DNA of 64,000 bases from Candidatus Moraniibacteriota bacterium (GTDB taxonomy: Bacteria; Patescibacteriota; Minisyncoccia; Moranbacterales; UBA2206). Shown piece by piece: positions 6,680 to 53,564 of the stretch. Every line of letters begins with the position of its first letter. Positions within the stretch are counted from its first letter, which is position 1. The stretch is from contig DMWY01000008.1 in the NCBI GenBank assembly GCA_003483065.1, forward strand, positions 2,177-66,176, given 5' to 3'. A model generated the notes under the pieces. The model ran no database searches. It had not been told where the DNA came from and saw only the letters and a list, made by a program, of their open reading frames with translations. The translations under genes and the position numbers were made by a program.

Positions 6680-8536
6680 ATGAATAACGATATAGAGGAG
6701 ATAAAATCAAAGCTCAATATAGTGGATATTTTGGGCGAATATATTCGTTTGGACAAGGCAGGGGCGAACTGGCGAGCTCTCTGTCCTTTTCATAACGAGA
6801 AATCACCATCTTTTATGGTGAATGAAGAAAAACAATTTTGGCATTGTTTTGGTTGTCAAAAATCAGGTGATATCTTTGCTTTTGTGATGGAAATGGAAGG
6901 CGTGGAATTTCGAGAAGCGCTGAATTCACTTGCAGAAAAAGCGGGAGTAAAATTGCAATCCTATAGTCCAGAAAAATCCCAGGAAAAAAATCGGACATTG
7001 GAAATTTTGGAATTAGCCACGAAATTTTATGAAGTGCAACTCTGGAAGGGGGAGGGTAAGGAAAAAATTATAAACTATCTTCATGAAAGAGGACTCAAAG
7101 ATGAAACAATTAAGGAATTTCGGTTGGGTTACGTACCGTCTGGTTGGCGAAATGTTCTAGATTTTTTAGTTAAAAGGGGATATAAAATTGAAGAAATAAA
7201 TAAGACAGGGCTTTTGGTGCAGAAAAACAATGCGCAACCTTCTGACCTCACCCCCAGCCCCTCTCCTTATCAAGGAGAGGGGGGTAATCGATTTTATGAT
7301 CGCTTTCGTGATCGAATTATTTTTCCAATCAGTGATTATTCAGGAAAAGTGTTGGGCTATACAGCGCGGGTGACTCCCGGAAGTGATGAATCGCAAGCTA
7401 AATATGTCAATTCTCCAGAAACCGAAATGTATCACAAAAGCCGAATTCTTTATGGTTTAGACAGAGCTAAATCAGAGATAAAAAAGCAGGACTTTGTTCT
7501 CCTGGTGGAAGGTCAAATGGATGTAATCGCTTCGCATCAAGCGGGAATAAAAAACACTGTTGCAGTGAGTGGTACAGCGCTTACGCTCGAGCAAATTGCC
7601 ATAATAAAAAGATACACCAAAAACATTCAAATGTTTTTTGATATGGATAGCGCTGGTGAAAATGCCACCAAAAAAAGTGTGAAATTATGTCTAGCCAGTG
7701 GCATGGCGGTGCGCATTGTGAGTTTGGAACGAGGGAAAGACGCAGCTGATATGGCTAAGGAAAACCCAGAAGAGCTTGCGAAAAGCGTGGCGCAATCTTT
7801 ACCAGCGGTGGAATATTTTTTCCAAAAGACATTTGGAAAGTTTGATAGAAATAAGGTGGAGGATAAGAAAAAAATAACCTCAGAACTACTGGATATTATT
7901 TTGGATCTAGAGAATGAAGTGGAAAAAAATTATTGGATAAAAAAATTAGCCGAAGGATTAGGTGTTTCAGAATCAGCATTGACGGATGAGCTCAAAAAGA
8001 CTAGTCTTAAAGATAAGAATACTAAAGATAGTGGCCAGAAAGAAGACATAAAAAAAATCGGACCAACCACAAAAAAAGAAATGCTTATTTGGGAAATGAT
8101 TGGCCTAATGTTGGTTTCAAGTTTTGTTTGGAAAAAAGCGTGTGAAGAGGAAAAAACAAGAAAAATTTTCTTGTCGGACAATCTTTTGCAACTAATGCTG
8201 GAAAAAGGAGAACAAGTTAATTTTAATTTCGATACTTTTTTGAATGAAATTGTGGATGATCGAGAGCTTAGCGAAAAAGCGCGAAAATTATTTATTCAAA
8301 AAAAATATCAACTCGATTTAAATAATAATCAAGAAGAGATAATAATCGAAGACCCATGGAAAGAATTTCAAGCTTGTGAGAGGGAAATGGAAAGAGAAGA
8401 AAAAAAAGAAGAATTAAATCGCATAGGCAATGATTTGAAACTGGCCGAAGAAAGAAAGGATGAAACAGCAAAGAAATTTTTGCGAGAGCAGTCGGACAAA
8501 ATTTCCAAAGAATTAGCAAAGTTAATGGAGTTATAA
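6680..8536 (+). CDS. dnaG: DNA primase DnaG
   Basis: Zinc-ribbon CPFHNEKSPSF...WHCFGCQKSGD. TOPRIM motif LLVEGQMDV...DSAG. Contains a low-complexity insert, LTPSPSPYQGEGGN. Confidence 0.9.
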   Translation: MNNDIEEIKSKLNIVDILGEYIRLDKAGANWRALCPFHNEKSPSFMVNEEKQFWHCFGCQKSGDIFAFVMEMEGVEFREALNSLAEKAGVKLQSYSPEKSQEKNRTLEILELATKFYEVQLWKGEGKEKIINYLHERGLKDETIKEFRLGYVPSGWRNVLDFLVKRGYKIEEINKTGLLVQKNNAQPSDLTPSPSPYQGEGGNRFYDRFRDRIIFPISDYSGKVLGYTARVTPGSDESQAKYVNSPETEMYHKSRILYGLDRAKSEIKKQDFVLLVEGQMDVIASHQAGIKNTVAVSGTALTLEQIAIIKRYTKNIQMFFDMDSAGENATKKSVKLCLASGMAVRIVSLERGKDAADMAKENPEELAKSVAQSLPAVEYFFQKTFGKFDRNKVEDKKKITSELLDIILDLENEVEKNYWIKKLAEGLGVSESALTDELKKTSLKDKNTKDSGQKEDIKKIGPTTKKEMLIWEMIGLMLVSSFVWKKACEEEKTRKIFLSDNLLQLMLEKGEQVNFNFDTFLNEIVDDRELSEKARKLFIQKKYQLDLNNNQEEIIIEDPWKEFQACEREMEREEKKEELNRIGNDLKLAEERKDETAKKFLREQSDKISKELAKLMEL

Positions 8537-8548
8537 TAATATTATTAT

Positions 8549-8689
8549 GACTTCCGCATTTCCCTTCGAATCTATTGTTCGCTGAAATTACTTTAAAATT
8601 CAATTAAGATTATAGATAGAAATTATTGTTTATAAATCCTGCCATTGCACTGGCTACATAAATAGATTCTCAGAAAAATGCGTAAGTCC
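8549..8689 (+). repeat. MITE-like intergenic element copy 1 (141 bp) immediately upstream of rpoD
   Basis: Termini GACTTCCGCATTT ... AAATGCGTAAGTCC are inverted repeats. Internal 9-bp inverted repeat GAATCTATT/AATAGATTC. About 88% identical to the copy at 33650-33790. Confidence 0.6.
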
Positions 8690-8708
8690 TAATTATATCT
8701 AAACATTT

Positions 8709-10046
8709 ATGGTCAAAGTTAAAAAAAATAAGAAAAAAATCTTGAAAAATAAAAAAACGCCGAAAAAAATCAAAGCTGTTCAAAAAAAGAGCAACAAAAA
8801 GATTGTTTCTAAGAAGAAAATTGTGCCTAAAAAGCCTAAAAATAAGGCTAAAATAGCGCCAAAAAAGAAGATTGAGAAAAAGAAACCAATCAAGAAAAAA
8901 GTCGTCAAGCAGATTTCCAAAAGAATGGAGGAAAAAAATTCTCAAAGACGCGGAGATATTGATGAACTGGTCTATCGTGGAAAGCAAAGAGGTTTCATCA
9001 CAGAGGATGAAATTTTGCATGTCATTCCGGATGCGGAAAAGGATATTGAAAAATTGGAAGAACTTTATGAAAAACTCGAAAAGAAAAATATTCGGGTGGT
9101 AAATTCTGATGAAATGATTCGCATGGAAACAGACAAGGTTTCTGAGGATTTTGACAAACAAAAAACTGGCAAGAAAAAAACCAGAAAAGAAACAATGGAC
9201 GTGGGTCCGGAAGAAGCTTCTTCCGATTTGGTTCAGATGTATTTACGAGAAATTGGTCGCGTGGATCTTCTCAGCACCGAAGAAGAAATAAACCTGGCGA
9301 AAAGAATTGAAAAAGGAGATACGATGGCCAAACAAAGACTCACCGAAGCTAATCTTCGACTTGTGGTGAGTATCGCCAAAAAATATGTGGGTCGCTCACA
9401 TAACCTTTCTCTTTTAGATTTGATTCAAGAAGGCAACATCGGACTTTTCCGCGCCGTGGAAAAATTTGACTATCGAAAAGGCTACAAATTTTCCACATAT
9501 GCTACTTGGTGGATTCGCCAAGCTGTGACACGCGCGCTAGCTGACCAATCAAGAACGATTCGTATTCCGGTGCATATGGTAGAAACGATTAATAAATATA
9601 CGCAAATTACCCGAAGACTCGTGCAAGATCTTGGACGCGAACCACTTCCAGAAGAAATTGCGGTGGAAATGGGAATTGAGGTGGACAAAATTCGCCACAT
9701 CCAAAAAATTTCCCAAGAAACAGTTTCTTTGGAAACTTCAGTGGGGGACTCAGATGACGACAGCGTGCTTGGAGATTTCATTGAGGATACTGAAACTGTG
9801 ATGCCAAATCAAATTGCTAGCCGAAAAATGCTCAAGGAACATGTGACGGAAATTTTGAAGGATCTCACTCCACGCGAACAAAAAATTCTGAAAATTCGTT
9901 TCGGTTTGGAAGACGGCGTGACGCATACCTTGGAAGAAGTGGGACAGGAATTTGGCGTCACTCGCGAACGAATTCGACAGATTGAAGCCAAGGCTTTGGA
10001 AAAAATTCGCGATCATAAAACTATCAAGAAACTTCGAGATTACTAA
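8709..10046 (+). CDS. rpoD: Primary RNA polymerase sigma factor (sigma-70/RpoD) with a lysine-rich N-terminal extension
   Basis: Region 1.2/2 [16 protein letters not shown] and [37 protein letters not shown]. Region 4 near the C-terminus. The first ~70 aa are about 50% Lys. Follows dnaG as in the macromolecular-synthesis operon. Confidence 0.95.
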
Positions 10047-10173
10047 AAATGATGCTAATCTACGAATACCTGCCTGCCGGCAGGCAGGAATGCTAATCTG
10101 CTAATTGCGAATAATACGAAGTTATCCACAGCCTTGGATTTGACAAAAAAAATAGATGTGCTAAATTAAATTC

Positions 10174-10272
10174 ATGAAAAACATGCAAACTAAAATATCA
10201 TTTATATTGTCTGTGATTATTTTGTTGGTCTTTGAGACCGGCCTTGGTTTGCGTGAAATGAAAAAAGCATAA
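10174..10272 (+). CDS. Small ORF (32 aa, hydrophobic single-helix peptide) inside a promoter-terminator sRNA-like module; may be non-coding
   Basis: TTGACA (10140-10145), 16-nt spacer, TAAATT. ORF MKNMQTKISFILSVIILLVFETGLGLREMKKA. Followed by a stem and T-run at 10300-10329. Paralogous module at 11038-11235. Confidence 0.3.
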   Translation: MKNMQTKISFILSVIILLVFETGLGLREMKKA

Positions 10273-10440
10273 GGAAGAAAATCATTTCAAATAAATCAAG
10301 ACCGATCTCTTCAAAAAGACCGGTTTTTTAGTTCTTTAAAACAAAGCTAGCAGTCAAAACAATGATTTTGCGGGAACTCGAAATTATTGATTTGACTGTT
10401 AGATGAATATTTAATTAATCTCAACGCAACGGAGGTATGC

Positions 10441-10866
10441 ATGAGAATAAATACACAGATATCCATTATCGCTTTAAGGAAAGATGGAAAAATAATAGTC
10501 CCGCCGGGGGATTATAATTTAATAGGTGCTTTTCTAGAGCCTGATATGATAGATGGATTTTTATTTCTGGATCAAGAAATATTTATCGGAAACTTACTAT
10601 TTGATTTGCTAAAAAAAAGTAAATTAATTAAAACATTGGATGAACAGGAGGTAATGATGGGTAAAAAAGGCATCAATAATAAGAGAAGAAAAAAAACGGA
10701 TAACTTGGCACCCATTATTCTCTCGCAGAGAATCCTTGAAGGGGCAAAAGTCGTTGGAATTGCGGGGCTGTTAGGAGGGATGGATATTCATGAGAAATAT
10801 TTCAGTGAAAATATCCGCGGAGTAGTCAATATGGCTGGTAGAATAGGAGGAAAGCCGTTTTTCTAA
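10441..10866 (+). CDS. Hypothetical protein
   Basis: 141-aa ORF downstream of the small-ORF module; no recognisable motif. Confidence 0.4.
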   Translation: MRINTQISIIALRKDGKIIVPPGDYNLIGAFLEPDMIDGFLFLDQEIFIGNLLFDLLKKSKLIKTLDEQEVMMGKKGINNKRRKKTDNLAPIILSQRILEGAKVVGIAGLLGGMDIHEKYFSENIRGVVNMAGRIGGKPFF

Positions 10867-11080
10867 AAAAAATAAAACGAAAGATACCCTCTCAAAAAAA
10901 ATATGGGGAGCATAAGTGCTCACAAGGCGCTTAAGCTTAAGAAGGACTTAACCATAGTCCCTCCCGATAAAACAGGAGAAGGGTGTAACCGCACCTTTCT
11001 CCTGAATCTAAAAAATAAAGTCAGTTTTTTTATATAGTTGACAAAAAAATAGGAAGTTGCTAAGATGAAAAAGTAAAAAT

Positions 11081-11176
11081 ATGTCAAAACAACCTAGTCA
11101 AAAATTTTATAGCTTTTCTTACTTTTATTTCTGGTTTAGCCAGATCGGTTTTGTTTTGCATAAAATGAAAGCATAA
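11081..11176 (+). CDS. Small ORF (31 aa, aromatic/hydrophobic peptide), paralogous module to 10174; may be non-coding
   Basis: TTGACA (11038-11043), 17-nt spacer, TAAGAT. ORF MSKQPSQKFYSFSYFYFWFSQIGFVLHKMKA. Followed by an imperfect hairpin CCGATCTCACGCGAGACCGG and T7 at 11203-11236. Confidence 0.3.
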   Translation: MSKQPSQKFYSFSYFYFWFSQIGFVLHKMKA

Positions 11177-11379
11177 AAGACATATTCATTTTAAACAGAC
11201 CAAAGCCGATCTCACGCGAGACCGGTTTTTTTGTTCTTTAAAACTGTTTTTTGGAGTTTTGATGGTTAAAATAAGAAGTTCATTTTGTCATTGCGAGCAT
11301 ATCGAAGCAATCTAGAATTTTTATTTTAACTATCAACACTAACCAATAAACAAAAAACAAGCAAGAAAGGAGTTGTAAG

Positions 11380-11775
11380 ATGAAAAGCTTAAGTAACCGA
11401 AAAGGTCTTCCTGTTGATTTTTCCACAATGAGTATAAGTGACCTCACTCTCATTATTCAGATTATTGAGGCACTTATATTAAAAGCCGAAAAAAAAGACG
11501 GGAAGCTTGTGGGGAGTGATGAAGACATTGCAAGGATTACTGTCCCACTCAGACGTCTGGCTGAAGTTTTCCATATTGATTATTTCATAAATATCAGGAT
11601 GGAAGTAATTAATAAAACCGTTAATGAAATTAAAAGATCTCTCGGAGCTCTTTCTGCTTTGGAAGCTGATTTCTTTTTACTGATAAAAGAAAAAAATAAA
11701 GATTCCCAAAAAGAAAAAAAGAACCTGCCTGGCCTGAGAGTGGCAACCTCTAGCGGTGTTTACAAAACCGCCTAG
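11380..11775 (+). CDS. Hypothetical protein
   Basis: 131-aa ORF; no recognisable motif. Confidence 0.4.
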   Translation: MKSLSNRKGLPVDFSTMSISDLTLIIQIIEALILKAEKKDGKLVGSDEDIARITVPLRRLAEVFHIDYFINIRMEVINKTVNEIKRSLGALSALEADFFLLIKEKNKDSQKEKKNLPGLRVATSSGVYKTA

Positions 11776-11876
11776 TAAACTCCGAAAAAAGCAATGGTGG
11801 ACGACGCTTCGTCCACCATTGCCCCAAACTATTAAAATTGGTAAACTTTAAATATTACTAAAAATAAATCAAACTT

Positions 11877-12452
11877 ATGTCTCAAAAAATCAAAATCGGC
11901 GTTTCGGGTAATCGAGGAAGTTTTTCGGAAGAAGCCGCTAACTATTATTGCGGAAAAAATAGCATAACTGAATATGAGCTTTCCTATCTAACTAGCGTGG
12001 AAAATGTTCTCTCGGCGCTGGATGAAGGAAAAATTAACAAAGGAGTTTTCCCAATTGAAAATTCCAATGGTGGAATTGTGATTGAAGCGGTCAATGCTAT
12101 GTCAAAACATATTTTCAATATTGAGAAAATGTTTGAAATTGACATTCGAATGAATTTGATGGCGAAAAAAGGCACAAAATTAGAGGATATAAAGAAGATA
12201 ACTTCTCATCAACAAGCCCTTCGGCAATGTCGAATGTATCTCAAGCGAAAGTGGCCAGAAGCAGAACTTTCGGAATATTGCGACACGGCTAGCGCAGCCA
12301 AAGATTTGAGCGAGGGAGTTTTGCCAGAAAATTCGGCGGTTATCGCTCCGAGAATTTGCGCCGAGTTATATAATCTCGATCTATTAGAAGAGAGTATACA
12401 GGATTTGAAGTTTAATTTTACAACTTTTATTGTGGCTGTTAAAGTTAAATAA
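11877..12452 (+). CDS. pheA: Prephenate dehydratase catalytic (PDT) domain protein; no ACT regulatory domain
   Basis: IENSNGGIV and C-terminal FNFTTFIV (TRF-like) motifs of the PDT domain. At 191 aa it is shorter than typical PheA. Confidence 0.7.
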   Translation: MSQKIKIGVSGNRGSFSEEAANYYCGKNSITEYELSYLTSVENVLSALDEGKINKGVFPIENSNGGIVIEAVNAMSKHIFNIEKMFEIDIRMNLMAKKGTKLEDIKKITSHQQALRQCRMYLKRKWPEAELSEYCDTASAAKDLSEGVLPENSAVIAPRICAELYNLDLLEESIQDLKFNFTTFIVAVKVK

Positions 12453-12477
12453 AAGATTAAAAAATTTAATACTTATA

Positions 12478-12626
12478 GGACTTACGCATTTGCTTACGTC
12501 AAGATATGCTTGTCGCAAAAGCAACTATAAAATGCAACAATTCGCCAGTAATTAAAAACTGTTTAGGAAAAATATTTTTCTGGCGACTGCGTTAATATCT
12601 TTTCCGCAATCAAACGCGTAAATCCT
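12478..12626 (+). repeat. MITE-like element copy 2 (149 bp; shares only the termini) immediately upstream of tyrA
   Basis: GGACTTACGCATTT at the left end and AAACGCGTAAATCC at the right end. Interior unrelated to copies 1 and 3. Confidence 0.45.
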
Positions 12627-12639
12627 GAATTATATTTTT

Positions 12640-13665
12640 ATGAAATCAAAGAAGAAAATTTGCATAGTTGGTTTAGGGCGTTTTGGAACGCTCATTGCTT
12701 CAATTTTGAAAAAAGATTTTGAAGTTTCTGTGATGGTCAGTGACGCAAAAAAATATTTTGAAAAAGCAGAAAAGTTAGGAATAAAGATCATAGACAAAGA
12801 AGATTTGAAAATTTTTGATATCGTTATTCTTTGCCCACCAATTTCAAAAACTGAGCAAATAATCAAAGAAATCGGACCATTTCTAAAGGAAAAATCATTG
12901 CTGGTTGATACTTGTTCGGTAAAAACTTTGCCTTGCCAGTGGATGAAAAAACATGCGCCAAAAAATGTTGAAATTTTAGGAACTCATCCAATGTTTGGGC
13001 CGGTGACGACAAAATTTAATCTTGAAAAACAAACCTGGAAACTAGATGGGCTTCAAATTGTTCTTTGCCCCTTGAGAATAAATCAAAAAAAATTAGAAAA
13101 GATAAGGAAATTTTTGAAAAAACTAAAACTAAAAGTAATTGAAACGACCCCGCAGGAGCATGATCGGCAAAACGCCAAAACTTTGGCTCTAGTTCATTTC
13201 CTAGGCCGAGCCTTAGTAACCTCGGGTGTTAAGGAGCAAGAAATTTTCACTCCCGGATACGCTGATCTTTTGAAAATTATCCCTCACACTGCTAGCGACA
13301 ATTGGCAATTGTTTTTTGACATGAATAATTTCAATCCATTTTCCGAGAAGATTAGAAAAGATTTTTTGAGAAGTTGTCATAATTTGGATTTCAAGATTGC
13401 ATTTTCAAAAGGAAAGGATGATTTGGAGTCATCTAGAAATATAATTGATTCAGTTGATGAGAAGGTATTTGAGCTTCTTAAGATTCGTTTTGGAGAAGTT
13501 AGAAAAATTGGGAAAACAAAAAAGAAAATCGGAAAAAATGTTCGAGACACAAAAAGAGAAGAGAGAATTATTGAAAATAAAGTTAGAAAATTTAAAATGG
13601 ATAAAGAATTGGTAGAAAATATCTACAAGGCTATTTTTAATCATTCATATAAAATTCAAAAATGA
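12640..13665 (+). CDS. tyrA: Prephenate/arogenate dehydrogenase (TyrA) with a C-terminal chorismate-mutase-like helical segment
   Basis: N-terminal Rossmann motif KICIVGLGRFG. C-terminal about 80 aa (VDEKVFELLKIRFGEVRKIGKTKK...ERIIENKVRKF...LVENIYKAIF) resembles AroQ chorismate-mutase helices. Confidence 0.7.
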   Translation: MKSKKKICIVGLGRFGTLIASILKKDFEVSVMVSDAKKYFEKAEKLGIKIIDKEDLKIFDIVILCPPISKTEQIIKEIGPFLKEKSLLVDTCSVKTLPCQWMKKHAPKNVEILGTHPMFGPVTTKFNLEKQTWKLDGLQIVLCPLRINQKKLEKIRKFLKKLKLKVIETTPQEHDRQNAKTLALVHFLGRALVTSGVKEQEIFTPGYADLLKIIPHTASDNWQLFFDMNNFNPFSEKIRKDFLRSCHNLDFKIAFSKGKDDLESSRNIIDSVDEKVFELLKIRFGEVRKIGKTKKKIGKNVRDTKREERIIENKVRKFKMDKELVENIYKAIFNHSYKIQK

Positions 13666-14765
13666 TACTCTCAAAAAGAATTCAAAAAATTGAAAGCTCG
13701 GGCATCCGGAAGGTTTTTGATTTAGCTGCCAAAAATAAAGGAAAATATGTGAATTTTTCTATTGGTCAACCACATTTTGATGCGCCGAAAAAACTCAAGA
13801 TTTCAGCGCAAAAAGCTATTTCGGATAATTGCAATTCATATACTCCAACCAAAGGAATTTTGAAACTGCGAGAGGAAATTTCCAAAAATCTTAGAGAAAC
13901 TAGGAAAATAAAAACTAACCCAGATAATATTATTGTCACTGCCGGAACTTCCGGGGCAATTTTTTTGCTTTTTTCTTCAATTTTTGATCCAGGAGAAGAA
14001 GTGATTTTGCCAGATCCATATTTCGTGATGTATCAGCAAGTGTTGAATTTTTTGGGAGTGAAGATAAAATATTTGGACACCTATCCGGATTTTCATATCA
14101 ATCCAGAAAAATTGGAAAAACTAATCACTCAAAAAACCAAGGCGATAATTCTCAATTCTCCCAACAATCCGACGGGGGCAGTTTATGCCAAAAAAGAAAT
14201 AGAAGTAGTGGTTAGAATTGCCAAGAAAAACAATCTATTGATTGTCTCTGATGAAATTTATGACGCATATGATTATGATCAGAATTTTTTCTCGCCCGCA
14301 TCAATTTATGAAAAAACAATTCTGCTTAGTGGTTTTTCCAAAAGTCATTCCATCACTGGTTGGCGAATTGGCTATGCTTATGGACCAAATGAAATTATCG
14401 AAGCGATGAATAAGTTGCAACAATATACTTTCGTCTGCGCGCCTTCCTTTGCGCAATTTGCAATGCTGGGTAATATTGATTCAATTCCAAAAAACGAAAT
14501 TGCAAATTACAAGAAGAAAAGAGATTTTGTTTATGAAAATCTCAAAGATTTATATGAGCTTAACATTCCTGAAGGCGCTTTCTATGCTTTCATAAAAATT
14601 CCAAAAGATCAGAAAAATTTCATCGAAAAACTTTTGAAAAATAATCTGCTGGTTGTGCCAGGAGAAGTGTTTTCTCAGAAAAAAGGCTATTTCAGAATTT
14701 CTTTTGCCGTGCCGGATGATGAGTTGAAAAAAGGGATAGAAATTCTTAAAAAAGCAATCGCCTAA
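13662..14765 (+). CDS. PLP-dependent class I/II aminotransferase (aromatic/aspartate type)
   Basis: PLP-lysine region SGFSKSHSITGWRIGYAYGP. NSPNNPTG motif. Operon with pheA and tyrA. Confidence 0.85.
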   Translation: MILSKRIQKIESSGIRKVFDLAAKNKGKYVNFSIGQPHFDAPKKLKISAQKAISDNCNSYTPTKGILKLREEISKNLRETRKIKTNPDNIIVTAGTSGAIFLLFSSIFDPGEEVILPDPYFVMYQQVLNFLGVKIKYLDTYPDFHINPEKLEKLITQKTKAIILNSPNNPTGAVYAKKEIEVVVRIAKKNNLLIVSDEIYDAYDYDQNFFSPASIYEKTILLSGFSKSHSITGWRIGYAYGPNEIIEAMNKLQQYTFVCAPSFAQFAMLGNIDSIPKNEIANYKKKRDFVYENLKDLYELNIPEGAFYAFIKIPKDQKNFIEKLLKNNLLVVPGEVFSQKKGYFRISFAVPDDELKKGIEILKKAIA

Positions 14766-33643: not shown

Positions 33644-33649
33644 ATGATA

Positions 33650-33790
33650 GAACTTCCCCATTTCCCTTCGAATCTATTGTTCACTGAAATTACAAAAAAA
33701 TAAAACTAAGATTATAGATAGAAAATATTGATTGTAATCCTGCTATTGTCCTGGCTACATAAATAGATTCTCATTGAAATGCGTAAGTTC
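33650..33790 (+). repeat. MITE-like element copy 3 (141 bp) immediately upstream of the response regulator at 33812
   Basis: GAACTTCCCCATTT ... AAATGCGTAAGTTC. Collinear with and near-identical to copy 1. Confidence 0.6.
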
Positions 33791-33811
33791 TAATAATTAA
33801 TTTTTTAAAAT

Positions 33812-51085: not shown

Positions 51086-51114
51086 AACTTGAAAACAGCC
51101 CTTGATGGCTGTTT

Positions 51115-51143
51115 TTGATTTATCGGAGGAAGGGGGGTAGAAT
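51115..51143 (+). promoter_or_regulatory. Conserved island promoter module, copy 1 (TTGATT, 17 nt, TAGAAT)
   Basis: TTGATT tatcggaggaagggggg TAGAAT GGAAGTGTTCAGT. The G-rich spacer and the first transcribed nucleotides are conserved in copies at 53095 and 53498. A second promoter (TTGCCT, 17 nt, TATAAT at 51195-51223) follows in the same leader. Confidence 0.6.
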
Positions 51144-51249
51144 GGAAGTGTTCAGTGAGGATTGGAAAAAATAAAGTTATCCACAGCTCAAAAGTTGCCT
51201 AAAATATCACAGAGTGATATAATATCATCATAACAAACTAAATAAAGTT

Positions 51250-52926: not shown

Positions 52927-53094
52927 AAAAAGGCTCCTTAGGCACCAACACCTTTCGGATCCTTTTCGTCTTTATGCATAAAATATACACCCAAATCAGC
53001 GAAATGTCAACAGTGCTTGAATAAACAATATTTAAACCTATTCATAATACACTTATTTAGACCAAATATTCCACAAAATTTATGAACATATTTG

Positions 53095-53123
53095 TTGGCT
53101 TATTGGGGGAAAGGGGGTAGAAT
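53095..53123 (+). promoter_or_regulatory. Conserved island promoter module, copy 2
   Basis: TTGGCT tattgggggaaaggggg TAGAAT AGAAGTGTTGA. Confidence 0.55.
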
Positions 53124-53200
53124 AGAAGTGTTGAATAATATCGAGAAAACAGAGAGTTTGCACCATTAATTGCGTAGCATAATTAATTTAAAATAAATTT

Positions 53201-53464: not shown

Positions 53465-53497
53465 AAAAATTCACAAAACCGCTATCACTGGCGGTTT

Positions 53498-53526
53498 TTG
53501 ATTTATTGGAGGAAAGGGGGTAGAAT
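53498..53526 (+). promoter_or_regulatory. Conserved island promoter module, copy 3
   Basis: TTGATT tattggaggaaaggggg TAGAAT GGAAGTGTTCAGT. The -35 is fused to the T-run of the upstream terminator, as in copy 1. Confidence 0.6.
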
Positions 53527-53564
53527 GGAAGTGTTCAGTAATTAGTTAAGTAACATACAAAAAT

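What the first reader, a model, noticed from the sequence alone, without database searches (positions are those of the whole stretch)
10140..11236. Two paralogous promoter-small-ORF-terminator modules (candidate sRNAs or micro-proteins)
The segments 10140-10329 and 11038-11236 each carry a consensus TTGACA promoter, then a 31/32-codon ORF encoding a hydrophobic single-helix peptide, then a conserved tail (AAAAGACCGGTTTTTT-type stem and T-run). Both peptides end ...(E/K)MKKA / ...KMKA. The two downstream halves are clearly homologous at the DNA level. Each sits upstream of an unrelated hypothetical gene (141 aa and 131 aa). They could be type I toxin-like micro-proteins, leader peptides, or about 150-nt sRNAs.
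Basis: seen in the sequence. Interest (0 to 1): 0.6.

Follow-up and report, generated by a model that had tools for sequence, protein, structure and literature searches.

The report
Two amino-acid-sensing leader-peptide attenuators
The two small promoter–ORF–terminator modules are real, but they are most likely classical leader-peptide transcription attenuators, one tuned to branched-chain and one to aromatic amino acids, in a Candidate Phyla Radiation bacterium where such switches have not been described.

Summary
Both modules exist as described. Each has a near-consensus promoter, a 32- or 31-codon ORF starting at or about 8 nt from the predicted transcript start, and a hairpin plus T-run. 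Their 3' halves are homologous.

I found 55 distinct copies in 45 related Moranbacteria/Patescibacteria loci, and the ORF is intact in every copy.

The shared 'C-terminal peptide motif' is conserved as RNA, not as protein (pN/pS 1.09, low pS). It forms the 5' arm of a long, covarying hairpin, and that hairpin's 3' arm is also the 5' arm of the terminator.

Codons 14-19 are V-I-I-L-L-V in module A and Y-F-Y-F-W-F in module B. The aromatic run in B is under strong amino-acid-level selection (pN/pS 0.18).

Sister modules in relatives carry Leu-Leu-Leu(-Leu), or an Ile/Val-rich peptide directly upstream of cimA/leuA. B-type modules lie upstream of prephenate dehydratase or an aminotransferase in three sublineages.

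Constraint folding gives:
- ribosome stalled on the run: antiterminator forms;
- ribosome at the stop codon, or no ribosome: terminator forms.

There is no conserved antisense promoter and no Rfam match.

Best reading: ribosome-mediated attenuators (confidence about 0.7). The type I toxin and micro-protein readings are disfavoured.

The parts
10140..10167 (+). Module A promoter: -35 TTGACA (10140-10145), extended -10 TGcTAAATT (10159-10167).
   Evidence: The same design (TTGACA, N16-17, TGnTAnnnT, 6 nt, ATG) recurs in orthologues and in types C, D and E.
10174..10272 (+). Leader ORF A, 32 codons (MKNMQTKISFILSVIILLVFETGLGLREMKKA), predicted leaderless.
   Evidence: The ORF is intact in all A-type copies and its indels are multiples of 3. 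It is absent from the 15-billion-protein collection.
10213..10230 (+). Putative sensor codons 14-19 of A: Val-Ile-Ile-Leu-Leu-Val.
   Evidence: The aligned columns hold almost only I, L or V across all A subtypes.
10182..10193 (+). Region 1 of A (CATGCAAACTAA). It pairs with 10244-10255 in the nascent RNA.
   Evidence: z = -3.6 against shuffles of the 5' segment.
10227..10233 (+). Region 1'' of A (GGTCTTT). It pairs with AAAGACC at 10315-10321 and so extends the long hairpin up to the U-run.
10234..10261 (+). Region 2 of A: the 5' arm of the antiterminator hairpin. It is still coding (codons 21-29).
10282..10309 (+). Region 3 of A: the 3' arm of the antiterminator. Its last 8 nt, CCGATCTC (10302-10309), are also the 5' arm of the terminator.
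10302..10329 (+). Intrinsic terminator of A: CCGATCTC, loop, AAGACCGG, T6.
   Evidence: -8.8 kcal/mol when the ORF is masked.
10330..10342 (+). Conserved motif AGTTCTTTAAAAC directly after the U-run. Function unknown.
   Evidence: It is present after the terminators of types A, B and D.
10347..10402 (+). Second long hairpin (about 24 bp, with G-U pairs) in the read-through leader, upstream of the Shine-Dalgarno sequence of the 141-aa gene.
   Evidence: z = -5.7. Hairpins occupy the same position in other A-type loci with different sequences.
10441..10866 (+). Downstream gene (141 aa, US30_C0003G0013), a member of the 'PGEY' small-protein family. Presumed regulated gene of module A.
   Evidence: (pN/pS 0.2).
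11038..11066 (+). Module B promoter: -35 TTGACA (11038-11043), extended -10 TGcTAAGAT (11058-11066).
11081..11176 (+). Leader ORF B, 31 codons (MSKQPSQKFYSFSYFYFWFSQIGFVLHKMKA). The leader is about 8 nt here; close relatives are leaderless.
   Evidence: Only one relative was found among 1.84 billion representative proteins.
11105..11137 (+). Putative sensor run of B, codons 9-19 (F Y S F S Y F Y F W F). Nine of 11 are aromatic and codons 14-19 are all aromatic.
   Evidence: P about 4e-8; no comparable stretch in 17,083 codons of the window. (pN/pS 0.18 with pS 0.64).
11133..11140 (+). Region 1'' of B (GGTTTAGC). It pairs with GCGAGACC at 11216-11223.
11142..11169 (+). Region 2 of B: the 5' arm of the antiterminator (codons 21-30).
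11185..11212 (+). Region 3 of B: the 3' arm of the antiterminator. It overlaps the terminator's 5' arm.
11206..11232 (+). Intrinsic terminator of B: CCGATCTC, ACGC, GAGACCGG, T7.
   Evidence: -12.3 kcal/mol when the ORF is masked.
11233..11244 (+). Conserved post-terminator motif GTTCTTTAAAAC.
11245..11352 (+). Second long hairpin in the read-through leader of B. In this genome its loop carries a palindromic insert (11288-11313).
   Evidence: z = -4.3; conserved, with compensatory differences, e.g. in L117 and L036.
11380..11775 (+). Downstream gene (131 aa, US30_C0003G0014), a lineage-restricted hypothetical.
11877..14765 (+). Cluster of prephenate dehydratase (PDT), prephenate dehydrogenase + chorismate mutase, and a class I/II aminotransferase, downstream of module B.

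Best explanation
**What the modules are.** Each module is the 5' leader of the gene(s) downstream of it and works as a ribosome-mediated (leader-peptide) transcription attenuator.

**Proposed sequence of events.**
- A strong sigma-70-type promoter starts transcription at, or a few nucleotides before, the AUG of a 31-32-codon ORF.
- Codons 14-19 (RNA nt 40-57) are a run for one class of amino acids: Val/Ile/Leu in module A and Tyr/Phe/Trp in module B.
- Just downstream, and still within the ORF, lies region 2. It pairs with region 3 in the 3' untranslated part to form a long antiterminator hairpin. The ORF stop codon sits in that hairpin's apical loop.
- The last 8 nt of region 3 (CCGAUCUC) can instead pair with region 4 ((G)AGACCGG), which is followed by U6-7. 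That pairing is the terminator.

**Three predicted states.**
- Ribosome runs to the stop codon: it masks region 2, 3:4 forms, and transcription ends at about 10329 (A) or 11232 (B).
- No ribosome: region 4 pairs with a segment just 5' of region 2 (region 1''). The long hairpin then extends right up to the U-run, and transcription again terminates. In sister type D the classical 1:2 plus 3:4 arrangement forms instead.
- Ribosome stalled on the run for lack of charged tRNA: it covers region 1''. 2:3 forms and region 4 has no partner. RNA polymerase reads through into a structured leader (second hairpin) and the downstream gene(s).

**Shown here.**
- The promoter, ORF and terminator anatomy.
- Conservation of the ORF.
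- Covariation of 2:3.
- Amino-acid-level selection confined to the run.
- The alternative folds in silico.
- The existence of paralogous modules carrying other amino-acid runs.
- The association with amino-acid genes.

**Inferred, not shown.**
- The transcription start sites.
- Translation of the ORFs.
- Coupling of transcription and translation.
- That read-through depends on amino-acid supply.
For: 1. **Anatomy and alternative pairing.** The 3' arm of the long hairpin is shared with the terminator.
2. **The 2:3 hairpin covaries.** In 37 diverse sequences 94.3% of cells are paired, against at most 57.5% when partners are slid. Seven pairs carry double changes (43 cells), and 0 of 500 shuffles reach the observed score. 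The many G-U pairs place the structure on the + strand RNA.
3. **The shared position in region 3 covaries with both partners** (alignment column 99).
   - With region 2 it forms U-A, C-G or U-G.
   - With region 4 it forms A-U, G-C or G-U, or an A·C mismatch.
4. **The ORF is intact in all 55 distinct copies** and its indels are multiples of 3.
5. **Selection in the B family differs by region**.
   - Aromatic run: pS 0.64, pN 0.12, ratio 0.18.
   - Structured 3' coding part: pS 0.15, pN 0.16, ratio 1.09.
   - Selection therefore acts on which amino acids the run encodes, and acts at the RNA level elsewhere.
6. **The aromatic run is exceptional.** Nine of 11 codons are aromatic against a 10% background (P about 4e-8), and no 6/6 aromatic stretch occurs in 17,083 codons of the window.
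7. **Paralogous modules with the same promoter, leaderless ORF, terminator and post-terminator motif carry other runs.**
   - Type D carries Leu-Leu-Leu(-Leu). It shows a textbook 1:2 / 2:3 / 3:4 topology built from different stem sequences, and its reading frame after the Leu run is not conserved.
   - Type E (7 Ile and 3 Val in 27 aa) lies about 200 nt upstream of a cimA/leuA-like gene.
   - Type C reads the conserved UUUUGGUUU motif in another frame.
8. **Constraint folding gives the three predicted states in all types**.
9. **B-type modules precede amino-acid genes**.
   - Prephenate dehydratase follows in two sublineages: B1 in window, L101, L123, L128, L138 and L150; B3 in L137, L139, L142, L146 and L147.
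   - An aminotransferase follows in a third: B2 in L057, L064 and L149.
10. **Between terminator and downstream gene there is no conserved promoter.** There is a conserved structured leader instead.
11. **Leaderless leader peptides have precedent** in Corynebacterium and Streptomyces attenuators (PMC11857589, PMC8079986).
Against: - The genes immediately downstream (141 aa and 131 aa; the 'PGEY' and other small-protein families) have no known link to amino-acid metabolism. They are lineage-restricted, with 4 homologues each among 5.8 billion proteins.
- Module A has no clear BCAA-related target in this window.
- Peptide A looks like an ordinary transmembrane helix. Six 6/6 BCAA stretches occur in the window's proteins.
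- Type C has no obvious amino-acid run.
- The 5'-proximal 1:2 pairing is not better than shuffles for B1 and A2.
- A weak promoter-like site (TTGACT-N18-TAATCT at 10392) and a hairpin without a U-run after the 131-aa gene leave open whether read-through reaches pheA.
- There are no transcript or translation data, and transcription-translation coupling in CPR bacteria is untested.
Confidence: 0.7

Rival explanations
1. The ORFs are independent genes for functional small membrane proteins. Each has its own strong promoter and terminator, and the hairpin is merely a structured 3' end.
For: - Peptides A and B have a polar N-terminus, a hydrophobic or aromatic core and a basic tail.
- The ORFs are intact everywhere, and whole-ORF pN/pS is 0.45-0.65 against 0.8-3.3 in shifted frames.
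- Both are followed by a bona fide terminator.
Against: - The C-terminal third shows no amino-acid-level selection (ratio 1.09).
- Homologous modules encode polar, non-membrane peptides (types C and D), and type C reads the conserved RNA in a different frame.
- The terminator shares a strand with a covarying alternative hairpin.
- A conserved structured leader without a promoter links each module to the next gene.
- The two paralogues segregate cleanly into BCAA and aromatic runs at the same position.
Confidence: 0.12
2. The modules are type I toxin-antitoxin loci: a small hydrophobic toxin whose highly structured mRNA is controlled by an antisense or overlapping sRNA.
For: - The peptides are small and hydrophobic.
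- The mRNA is very stably folded, with 5'-3' pairing in module A (helix 10176-10182 with 10323-10329).
- The copies are duplicated.
Against: - No conserved promoter on the opposite strand was found near any of about 45 copies. There is one chance-level site in the window only.
- Sister types are not hydrophobic.
- Nothing in Pfam matched the peptides.
- The modules sit at fixed syntenic positions in front of co-oriented genes.
Confidence: 0.03
3. The modules are stand-alone or dual-function small RNAs of about 150 nt. Their main role is trans-acting regulation, and the ORF is secondary.
For: - The anatomy (strong promoter plus efficient-looking terminator) would release a transcript of 150-155 nt.
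- The structure is conserved.
- Attenuator-derived sRNAs and leader peptides that act in trans are documented: rnTrpL and peTrpL (PMC6614838, PMC7298713).
Against: - The ORF and its codon run are under amino-acid-level selection.
- No conserved unpaired seed region is evident apart from the variable apical loop.
- There is no Rfam match.
- This reading is compatible with, rather than alternative to, an attenuator.
Confidence: 0.08
4. The terminator/antiterminator switch is real but is set by an RNA-binding protein or a small ligand, as in riboswitches or TRAP/PyrR-type control. The ORF is then incidental.
For: The mutually exclusive 2:3 and 3:4 pairings covary. The motif after the U-run ((A)GTTCTTTRAAA) and the second hairpin are conserved and could be protein-binding sites.
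Against: - The hairpin has only small internal loops, and its apical loop varies in length and sequence, so there is no aptamer-like conserved core.
- No riboswitch or T-box match was found.
- The ORF, its start at the transcript 5' end, its stop inside the 2:3 loop and its class-specific codon run are all conserved.
Confidence: 0.07

Closest known systems
pheA/pheL attenuator of Gammaproteobacteria (Rfam Phe_leader) and the aromatic (aroF) attenuator of Corynebacterium glutamicum
   Same: - A short leader ORF with a dense run of aromatic codons.
- An antiterminator and a terminator that share a strand.
- A position upstream of prephenate dehydratase.

Sources: PMC3082878; Neshat et al. 2014 as cited in PMC8079986.
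   Different: - No sequence or covariance-model similarity.
- The leader is 31-33 codons, against about 15, and mixes Phe, Tyr and Trp.
- The stop codon lies in the apical loop of a 23-28-bp antiterminator.
- Region 4 can also pair with a coding segment (1''), giving one giant terminator hairpin.
- A small ORFan gene and a second hairpin lie between the attenuator and pheA.
ilvGMEDA (IlvL, 32 aa) and ilvBNC multivalent BCAA attenuators (E. coli, from my own knowledge; C. glutamicum, PMC11857589)
   Same: - The leader peptide is rich in Ile, Leu and Val. Module A is also 32 codons.
- The design is an alternative hairpin plus an intrinsic terminator.
- In Corynebacterium the leader ORF starts 1 nt from the transcription start, so it is leaderless, as predicted here.
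   Different: - Module A is not upstream of ilv or leu genes in this window. It precedes a 141-aa protein of unknown function.
- In relatives it precedes an unknown 321-aa protein plus an M28-like peptidase.
- There is no sequence similarity.
leu operon attenuator (LeuL with four consecutive Leu codons; from my own knowledge) and Streptomyces LeuL1 (PMC8079986)
   Same: - Sister type D modules in relatives (L036, L154, L155, L156) carry three or four consecutive Leu codons in the loop of a 1:2 hairpin. They show the classical 1:2 / 2:3 / 3:4 topology.
- They are leaderless, like Streptomyces LeuL1.
   Different: Type D is not present in this window, and it precedes small unknown proteins rather than leuA.
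Type I toxin genes (Fst, TisB, Ibs, AapA1 and others; from my own knowledge)
   Same: A peptide of about 30 aa that is hydrophobic or aromatic, a strongly folded mRNA, and more than one copy.
   Different: No antisense RNA gene. Homologues encode non-hydrophobic peptides. The conserved part is an RNA switch, and the module is linked to a co-oriented downstream gene.

Membership tests
Ribosome-mediated (leader-peptide) transcription attenuator | A short translatable ORF lies at the 5' end of the transcript, upstream of and co-oriented with the regulated gene(s). | tested here: met
   - The ORFs are 32 and 31 codons. The ATG lies 6 nt (A) or 14 nt (B) after the -10 element.
- The spacing is conserved across types.
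- The ORF is intact in all 55 distinct copies.
- Translation itself has not been shown.
Ribosome-mediated (leader-peptide) transcription attenuator | The ORF carries a cluster of codons for the sensed amino acid(s), and that cluster is maintained by selection. | tested here: met
   - B: 9 of 11 codons are aromatic, P about 4e-8, pN/pS 0.18 with pS 0.64.
- A: codons 14-19 are all I, L or V, and the columns are class-conserved. This is weaker evidence, because transmembrane helices look similar.
Ribosome-mediated (leader-peptide) transcription attenuator | An intrinsic terminator lies between the leader ORF and the downstream gene. | tested here: met
   A hairpin plus U6-7 ends at 10329 and at 11232. 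It scores -8.8 and -12.3 kcal/mol when the ORF is masked, and it is invariantly present in homologues.
Ribosome-mediated (leader-peptide) transcription attenuator | An antiterminator is mutually exclusive with the terminator, and the pairing is supported by covariation. | tested here: met
   - 2:3 uses CCGAUCU(C), which is also the terminator's 5' arm.
- 94.3% of cells are paired, 7 pairs carry double changes, and 0 of 500 shuffles reach the score.
- The shared position covaries with both partners.
Ribosome-mediated (leader-peptide) transcription attenuator | Geometry: a ribosome stalled at the run frees the antiterminator strand, while a ribosome at the stop codon masks it. | tested here: met
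   - The run lies at nt 40-57, region 2 starts at nt 61, and the stop codon sits in the 2:3 loop.
- Constraint folds give the antiterminator without the terminator in the stalled state, and the terminator in the stop-codon state, in all types.
- This is in silico only.
Ribosome-mediated (leader-peptide) transcription attenuator | The regulated genes are functionally linked to the sensed amino acid. | tested here: inconclusive
   - B precedes prephenate dehydratase or an aminotransferase in three sublineages, and type E precedes cimA/leuA.
- The first gene after A and after B in this window has unknown function.
Ribosome-mediated (leader-peptide) transcription attenuator | Read-through depends on amino-acid supply and on translation of the leader. 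| not testable with these tools
   This needs RNA-seq or Term-seq, reporters or in vitro coupled assays.
Rfam amino-acid leader families (Phe_leader, Leu_leader, Thr_leader, His_leader, Trp_leader, leu/phe_leader) | A match to the covariance model at the gathering score. | tested here: not met
   No leader family was hit, even at E up to 10.
Type I toxin-antitoxin | A cis- or divergently encoded antisense sRNA with its own promoter. | tested here: not met
   No conserved minus-strand promoter within 230 nt downstream of any copy. Sites in the window occur at chance level.
Type I toxin-antitoxin | A small hydrophobic, membrane-active peptide is conserved across the family. | tested here: not met
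   Types C and D are polar, and the C-terminal part of B shows pN/pS 1.09.
Riboswitch / T-box | A conserved ligand- or tRNA-binding core: multi-helix junction, conserved unpaired nucleotides, specifier and T-box. | tested here: not met
   A single long hairpin with a variable apical loop. No Rfam match.

The most novel reading that the evidence does not exclude
Moranbacteria-like CPR bacteria carry a tandem battery of leaderless leader-peptide attenuators, each specific for a different amino-acid class: BCAA, Leu, aromatic, Ile/Val, and one unknown. Each gates a member of lineage-specific small-protein families (the 'PGEY', 'YxRxGxYLHL' and Cys-rich families). These proteins would then be a previously unrecognised, amino-acid-resolved starvation response in organisms that depend on hosts for amino acids. 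The abundant terminated leaders and peptides might have trans functions of their own.
Probability: 0.3. Interest if true: 0.75.

Novelty: new variant of a known kind. Interest (0 to 1): 0.6.

Why it matters
**Regulation in CPR bacteria.** Gene regulation in Candidate Phyla Radiation / Patescibacteria is almost unexplored, and these bacteria are thought to be largely auxotrophic. My literature searches found no paper on attenuators in this group.

**What it would show if correct.**
- Classical transcription-translation-coupled attenuation operates in this group.
- It would give a sequence-level read-out of which amino acids these cells monitor: Ile/Leu/Val, Leu, and Phe/Tyr/Trp.
- It would assign a physiological context, induction on starvation for a specific amino acid, to several families of ORFan small proteins and to peptidase, aminotransferase and pheA-tyrA genes.

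**Annotation.** It would add about 55 unannotated leader ORFs and a new RNA family that annotation pipelines and Rfam currently miss.

Tried and rejected
**Searches that found nothing**
- Rfam, at gathering score on the whole window and at E up to 10 on 9900-11900, gave only chance-level hits.
- Pfam on both peptides and on the 141-aa and 131-aa proteins gave nothing above threshold.
- An exact look-up of 10 peptide variants found none in the 15-billion-protein collection.
- An exhaustive phmmer search with peptide B gave a single 32-aa relative.

**Searches of limited use**
- The first genome-wide pattern was too loose. Most of the 119 hits were chance terminators, and only 16 were real. The viral scan gave one irrelevant hit.
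- AlphaFold2 models of the two downstream proteins were too poor for fold searches (pLDDT 31 and 66). I ran no fold search.
- Pfam on the downstream proteins of related loci gave an M28-like peptidase, an M20 peptidase, aminotransferases, CimA/LeuA and one sub-threshold DIT1_PvcA hit. The small proteins stayed unassigned.

**Ideas considered and dropped**
- A DNA-level palindrome or mobile element: rejected because of the G-U pairs and the strand-specific structure.
- A bidirectional terminator with an antisense RNA: there is no T-run or promoter on the minus strand.
- A bacteriocin-plus-immunity pair: sister peptides are polar, and a terminator sits in between.
- A MifM/SecM-like membrane-insertion sensor: types D and E, and the links to pheA and cimA, point to amino-acid sensing instead.
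- A classical 5'-proximal 1:2 hairpin is significant for A1, C3 and type D, but not for B1 or A2.
Full report
**Observation check.** The window comes from a Moranbacteria-type CPR bacterium. The neighbouring proteins are identical to US30_C0003G0013/14 of Candidatus Moranbacteria bacterium GW2011_GWF2_36_839. The same contig recurs in Rifle groundwater assemblies.

The local gene order is as follows:

| Feature | Coordinates |
|---|---|
| dnaG | 6680-8536 |
| rpoD | 8709-10046 |
| module A | 10140-10342 |
| 141-aa gene | 10441-10866 |
| module B | 11038-11244 |
| 131-aa gene | 11380-11775 |
| prephenate dehydratase | 11877-12452 |
| prephenate dehydrogenase/chorismate mutase | 12640-13665 |
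| aminotransferase | 13662-14765 |

- Each has TTGACA, a 16/17-nt spacer with an extended -10 (TGcTAAATT or TGcTAAGAT), a 32- or 31-codon ORF, and a hairpin followed by T6 or T7.
- The two copies align from about codon 20 to 12 nt beyond the T-run. Their upstream coding halves do not align.
- The shared blocks occur twice in 64 kb against 0 expected.
- Both RNAs fold far better than shuffles, z = -4.1 and -3.4.
- Rfam has nothing for them.

**Relatives.** A pattern scan of GTDB genomes was followed by blastn and nhmmer. It recovered both modules in 16 Patescibacteria loci, mostly Moranbacteria and usually in the same A-then-B order. A stricter pattern run on JGI metagenomes added 29 loci. Altogether there are 55 distinct module sequences.

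The ORF is intact in every one and varies from 22 to 38 codons. The ORF length differences within the A and B families are whole codons. None of ten peptide variants is present in a 15-billion-protein collection. Only one 32-aa relative of peptide B exists among 1.84 billion representatives. These ORFs are therefore essentially unannotated.

**What is conserved, and at what level.** RNAalifold and pair counting show a long hairpin. Its 5' arm is the last 9-10 codons of the ORF and its 3' arm lies in the 3' untranslated part. The stop codon sits in the apical loop.
- On 28 sequences, 95.6% of cells are paired, 5 pairs carry compensatory changes, and 0 of 500 shuffles reach the score.
- On 37 more diverse sequences, 94.3% are paired against at most 57.5% for slid partners, 7 pairs carry compensatory changes, and 0 of 500 shuffles reach the score.
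- Frequent G-U pairs place the structure on the + strand RNA.
- The last 8 nt of the 3' arm (CCGAUCUC) are also the 5' arm of the terminator, whose 3' arm is (G)AGACCGG followed by the U-run.
- The position shared by both pairings covaries with both partners. With region 2 it forms U-A, C-G or U-G. With region 4 it forms A-U, G-C or G-U, or an A·C mismatch.

Codon-level analysis of the 22 distinct B-family ORFs splits the ORF in two.
- The aromatic run (codons 9-19) has many synonymous and few non-synonymous differences (pS 0.64, pN 0.12, ratio 0.18).
- The structured 3' coding part has few differences of either kind (pS 0.15, pN 0.16, ratio 1.09).

Selection on the protein-coding reading is concentrated in the run.

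**The codon runs.** In both window modules the six codons at RNA nt 40-57, immediately 5' of the hairpin arm, belong to a single amino-acid class. They read V-I-I-L-L-V in A and Y-F-Y-F-W-F in B. B has 9 aromatic residues in 11 codons. The window's proteins are 10% aromatic (P about 4e-8), and no 6/6 aromatic stretch occurs in 17,083 codons. The A run is less exceptional, since six 6/6 BCAA stretches occur elsewhere. Across all A subtypes, however, the aligned columns hold almost only I, L or V.

**Sister modules.** The related loci contain further modules with the same promoter, the same 6-nt spacing to the ATG, a terminator, and the same (A)GTTCTTTRAAA motif after the U-run. Their peptides differ.
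- **Type D** (L036, L154, L155, L156; located between A and B) encodes, for example, MLKNIQNNLAQLLLQNSPIRRLF, with three or four consecutive Leu codons.
  - Its stems have unrelated sequences (GGCGG/CCGCC).
  - Its unconstrained fold is a textbook 1:2 hairpin with the Leu codons in the loop, plus a separate 3:4 terminator.
  - Masking the 5' part yields 2:3 and no terminator.
  - Its reading frame after the Leu run differs between loci.
- **Type E** (L080, L143) encodes MQKIVKKIIGFISIVIIRRKFFTLVCA, with 7 Ile and 3 Val. It lies about 200 nt upstream of a cimA/leuA-like gene.
- **Type C** encodes polar peptides and reads the conserved UUUUGGUUU segment in a different frame from A and B. I see no amino-acid run in it.

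These relatives show that a hydrophobic peptide is not the common denominator of the family. The switch architecture plus a class-specific codon run is.

**Mechanism.** Constraint folding of representatives of every type gives three states.
- With the ORF masked through the stop codon, the 3:4 terminator forms (-9 to -16 kcal/mol).
- With nt 1-58 masked (ribosome stalled on the run), the 2:3 hairpin forms and no terminator abuts the U-run.
- With no mask, A and B form one giant hairpin. Region 4 pairs with a segment just 5' of region 2 (GGUCUUU, or GGUUU.GC), so a helix again abuts the U-run. Type D instead forms 1:2 plus 3:4.

This is the logic of classical attenuation, with a variant way of ensuring termination in the untranslated state.

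No conserved promoter lies between terminator and downstream gene, and no conserved antisense promoter exists. Each module is instead followed by a second long hairpin (10347-10402, z = -5.7; 11245-11352, z = -4.3). Equivalents occur in relatives despite sequence change. A Shine-Dalgarno sequence and the next gene then follow. All this argues that the downstream gene is expressed by read-through.

**Targets.**
- B-type modules are followed on the same strand by prephenate dehydratase in two sublineages: B1 (window, L101, L123, L128, L138, L150) and B3 (L137, L139, L142, L146, L147).
- B2 modules (L057, L064, L149) are followed by an unknown 277-aa protein plus a class I/II aminotransferase.
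- A-type modules are followed by an unknown 321-aa protein plus an M28-like peptidase in L057, L140, L144 and L149.
- In the window clade the first gene after each module is a small lineage-restricted protein.
  - The 141-aa protein is under purifying selection (pN/pS about 0.2). It belongs to a 'PGEY' family that also follows types D and B3.
  - The 131-aa protein and a 'YxRxGxYLHL' family follow B.
  - Their functions are unknown: Pfam is negative and the structure models are poor.

This is the main gap in the attenuator reading, especially for module A.

**Comparison with known systems.** The closest known systems are:
- the pheL/pheA attenuator (PMC3082878);
- the multivalent ilv attenuators;
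- the leu attenuator;
- the leaderless leader peptides of Corynebacterium ilvBNC (transcription start 1 nt from the start codon; PMC11857589);
- the leaderless leader peptides of Streptomyces (PMC8079986).

The modules meet the structural criteria of that class, but they match no Rfam leader family. They differ in several respects:
- the leader is long;
- the stop codon sits in the antiterminator loop;
- region 4 can pair in two ways;
- there is a conserved post-terminator motif and a second hairpin;
- modules occur in tandem arrays with different specificities;
- the proximal targets are not biosynthetic genes.

Full-text searches found no paper on attenuators in Patescibacteria/CPR.

**Verdict.**
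- The best explanation is a pair of ribosome-mediated attenuators, BCAA-type and aromatic-type (confidence about 0.7).
- Independent small membrane proteins (0.12), sRNA-only (0.08), a protein- or ligand-controlled switch (0.07) and a type I toxin (0.03) are the rivals.
- Novelty: a new variant of a known kind, in a phylum where it has not been described.
- Interest: 0.6.

Noticed in passing
window 8545-8700 and 33647-33800; L137 (reverse strand) about 1950-2125: A conserved element of about 150 nt (two window copies, 87% identical) with a predicted conserved fold. It lies upstream of rpoD and of a response-regulator gene. A third copy lies upstream of pheA in another lineage. There is no Rfam hit.
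   Followed up: partly
window 10347-10402 and 11245-11352: Long hairpins of 20-25 bp, with G-U pairs, lie between each terminator and the Shine-Dalgarno sequence of the next gene. Relatives conserve them in position and structure but not in sequence. They could be RNase III sites or a second regulatory step.
   Followed up: partly
window 10330-10342 and 11233-11244 (and after almost every related terminator): The motif (A)GTTCTTTRAAA directly follows the U-run in types A, B and D. It also follows an unrelated hairpin in L137. Its function is unexplained.
   Followed up: partly
window 11288-11313: A palindromic insert, GTCATTGCGAGCATATCGAAGCAATC, sits in the loop of module B's second hairpin. 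It is present here and in L150 but absent from orthologues L034, L068, L101, L123 and L128, so it behaves like a small REP/MITE-like mobile palindrome.
   Followed up: no
window 10932-11004: A strong 13-bp hairpin (CAGGAGAAGGGTG...CACCTTTCTCCTG) lies in the 170-nt spacer between the 141-aa gene and the module B promoter. The minus strand gives a weak sub-threshold Rfam hit (Ref66, E = 0.033).
   Followed up: no
window 11797-11828: A perfect 14-bp hairpin (GCAATGGTGGACGA/TCGTCCACCATTGC) follows the 131-aa gene with no U-run after it. It is unclear whether it stops transcripts before pheA.
   Followed up: no
window 11877-14765: A cluster of prephenate dehydratase, prephenate dehydrogenase + chorismate mutase, and an aminotransferase. 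This is an unexpected piece of Phe/Tyr biosynthesis for a CPR genome.
   Followed up: partly
L080 4078-4260 (also L143 about 325-500): A leaderless 27-codon ORF rich in Ile and Val (MQKIVKKIIGFISIVIIRRKFFTLVCA), followed by a terminator, lies about 200 nt upstream of a cimA/leuA-like gene. I take it to be a further attenuator type.
   Followed up: partly
L153, L157, L159, L160, L162: Type C modules encode polar peptides and are followed by small Cys-rich proteins (CxxC-rich, 60-145 aa). What they sense is unknown.
   Followed up: partly
window 51092-51156, 53072-53136, 53475-53539: A three-copy repeat: a terminator-like hairpin followed by TTGATTTAT..GGGGGTAGAATGGAAG, which looks like a promoter (family D2).
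   Followed up: no
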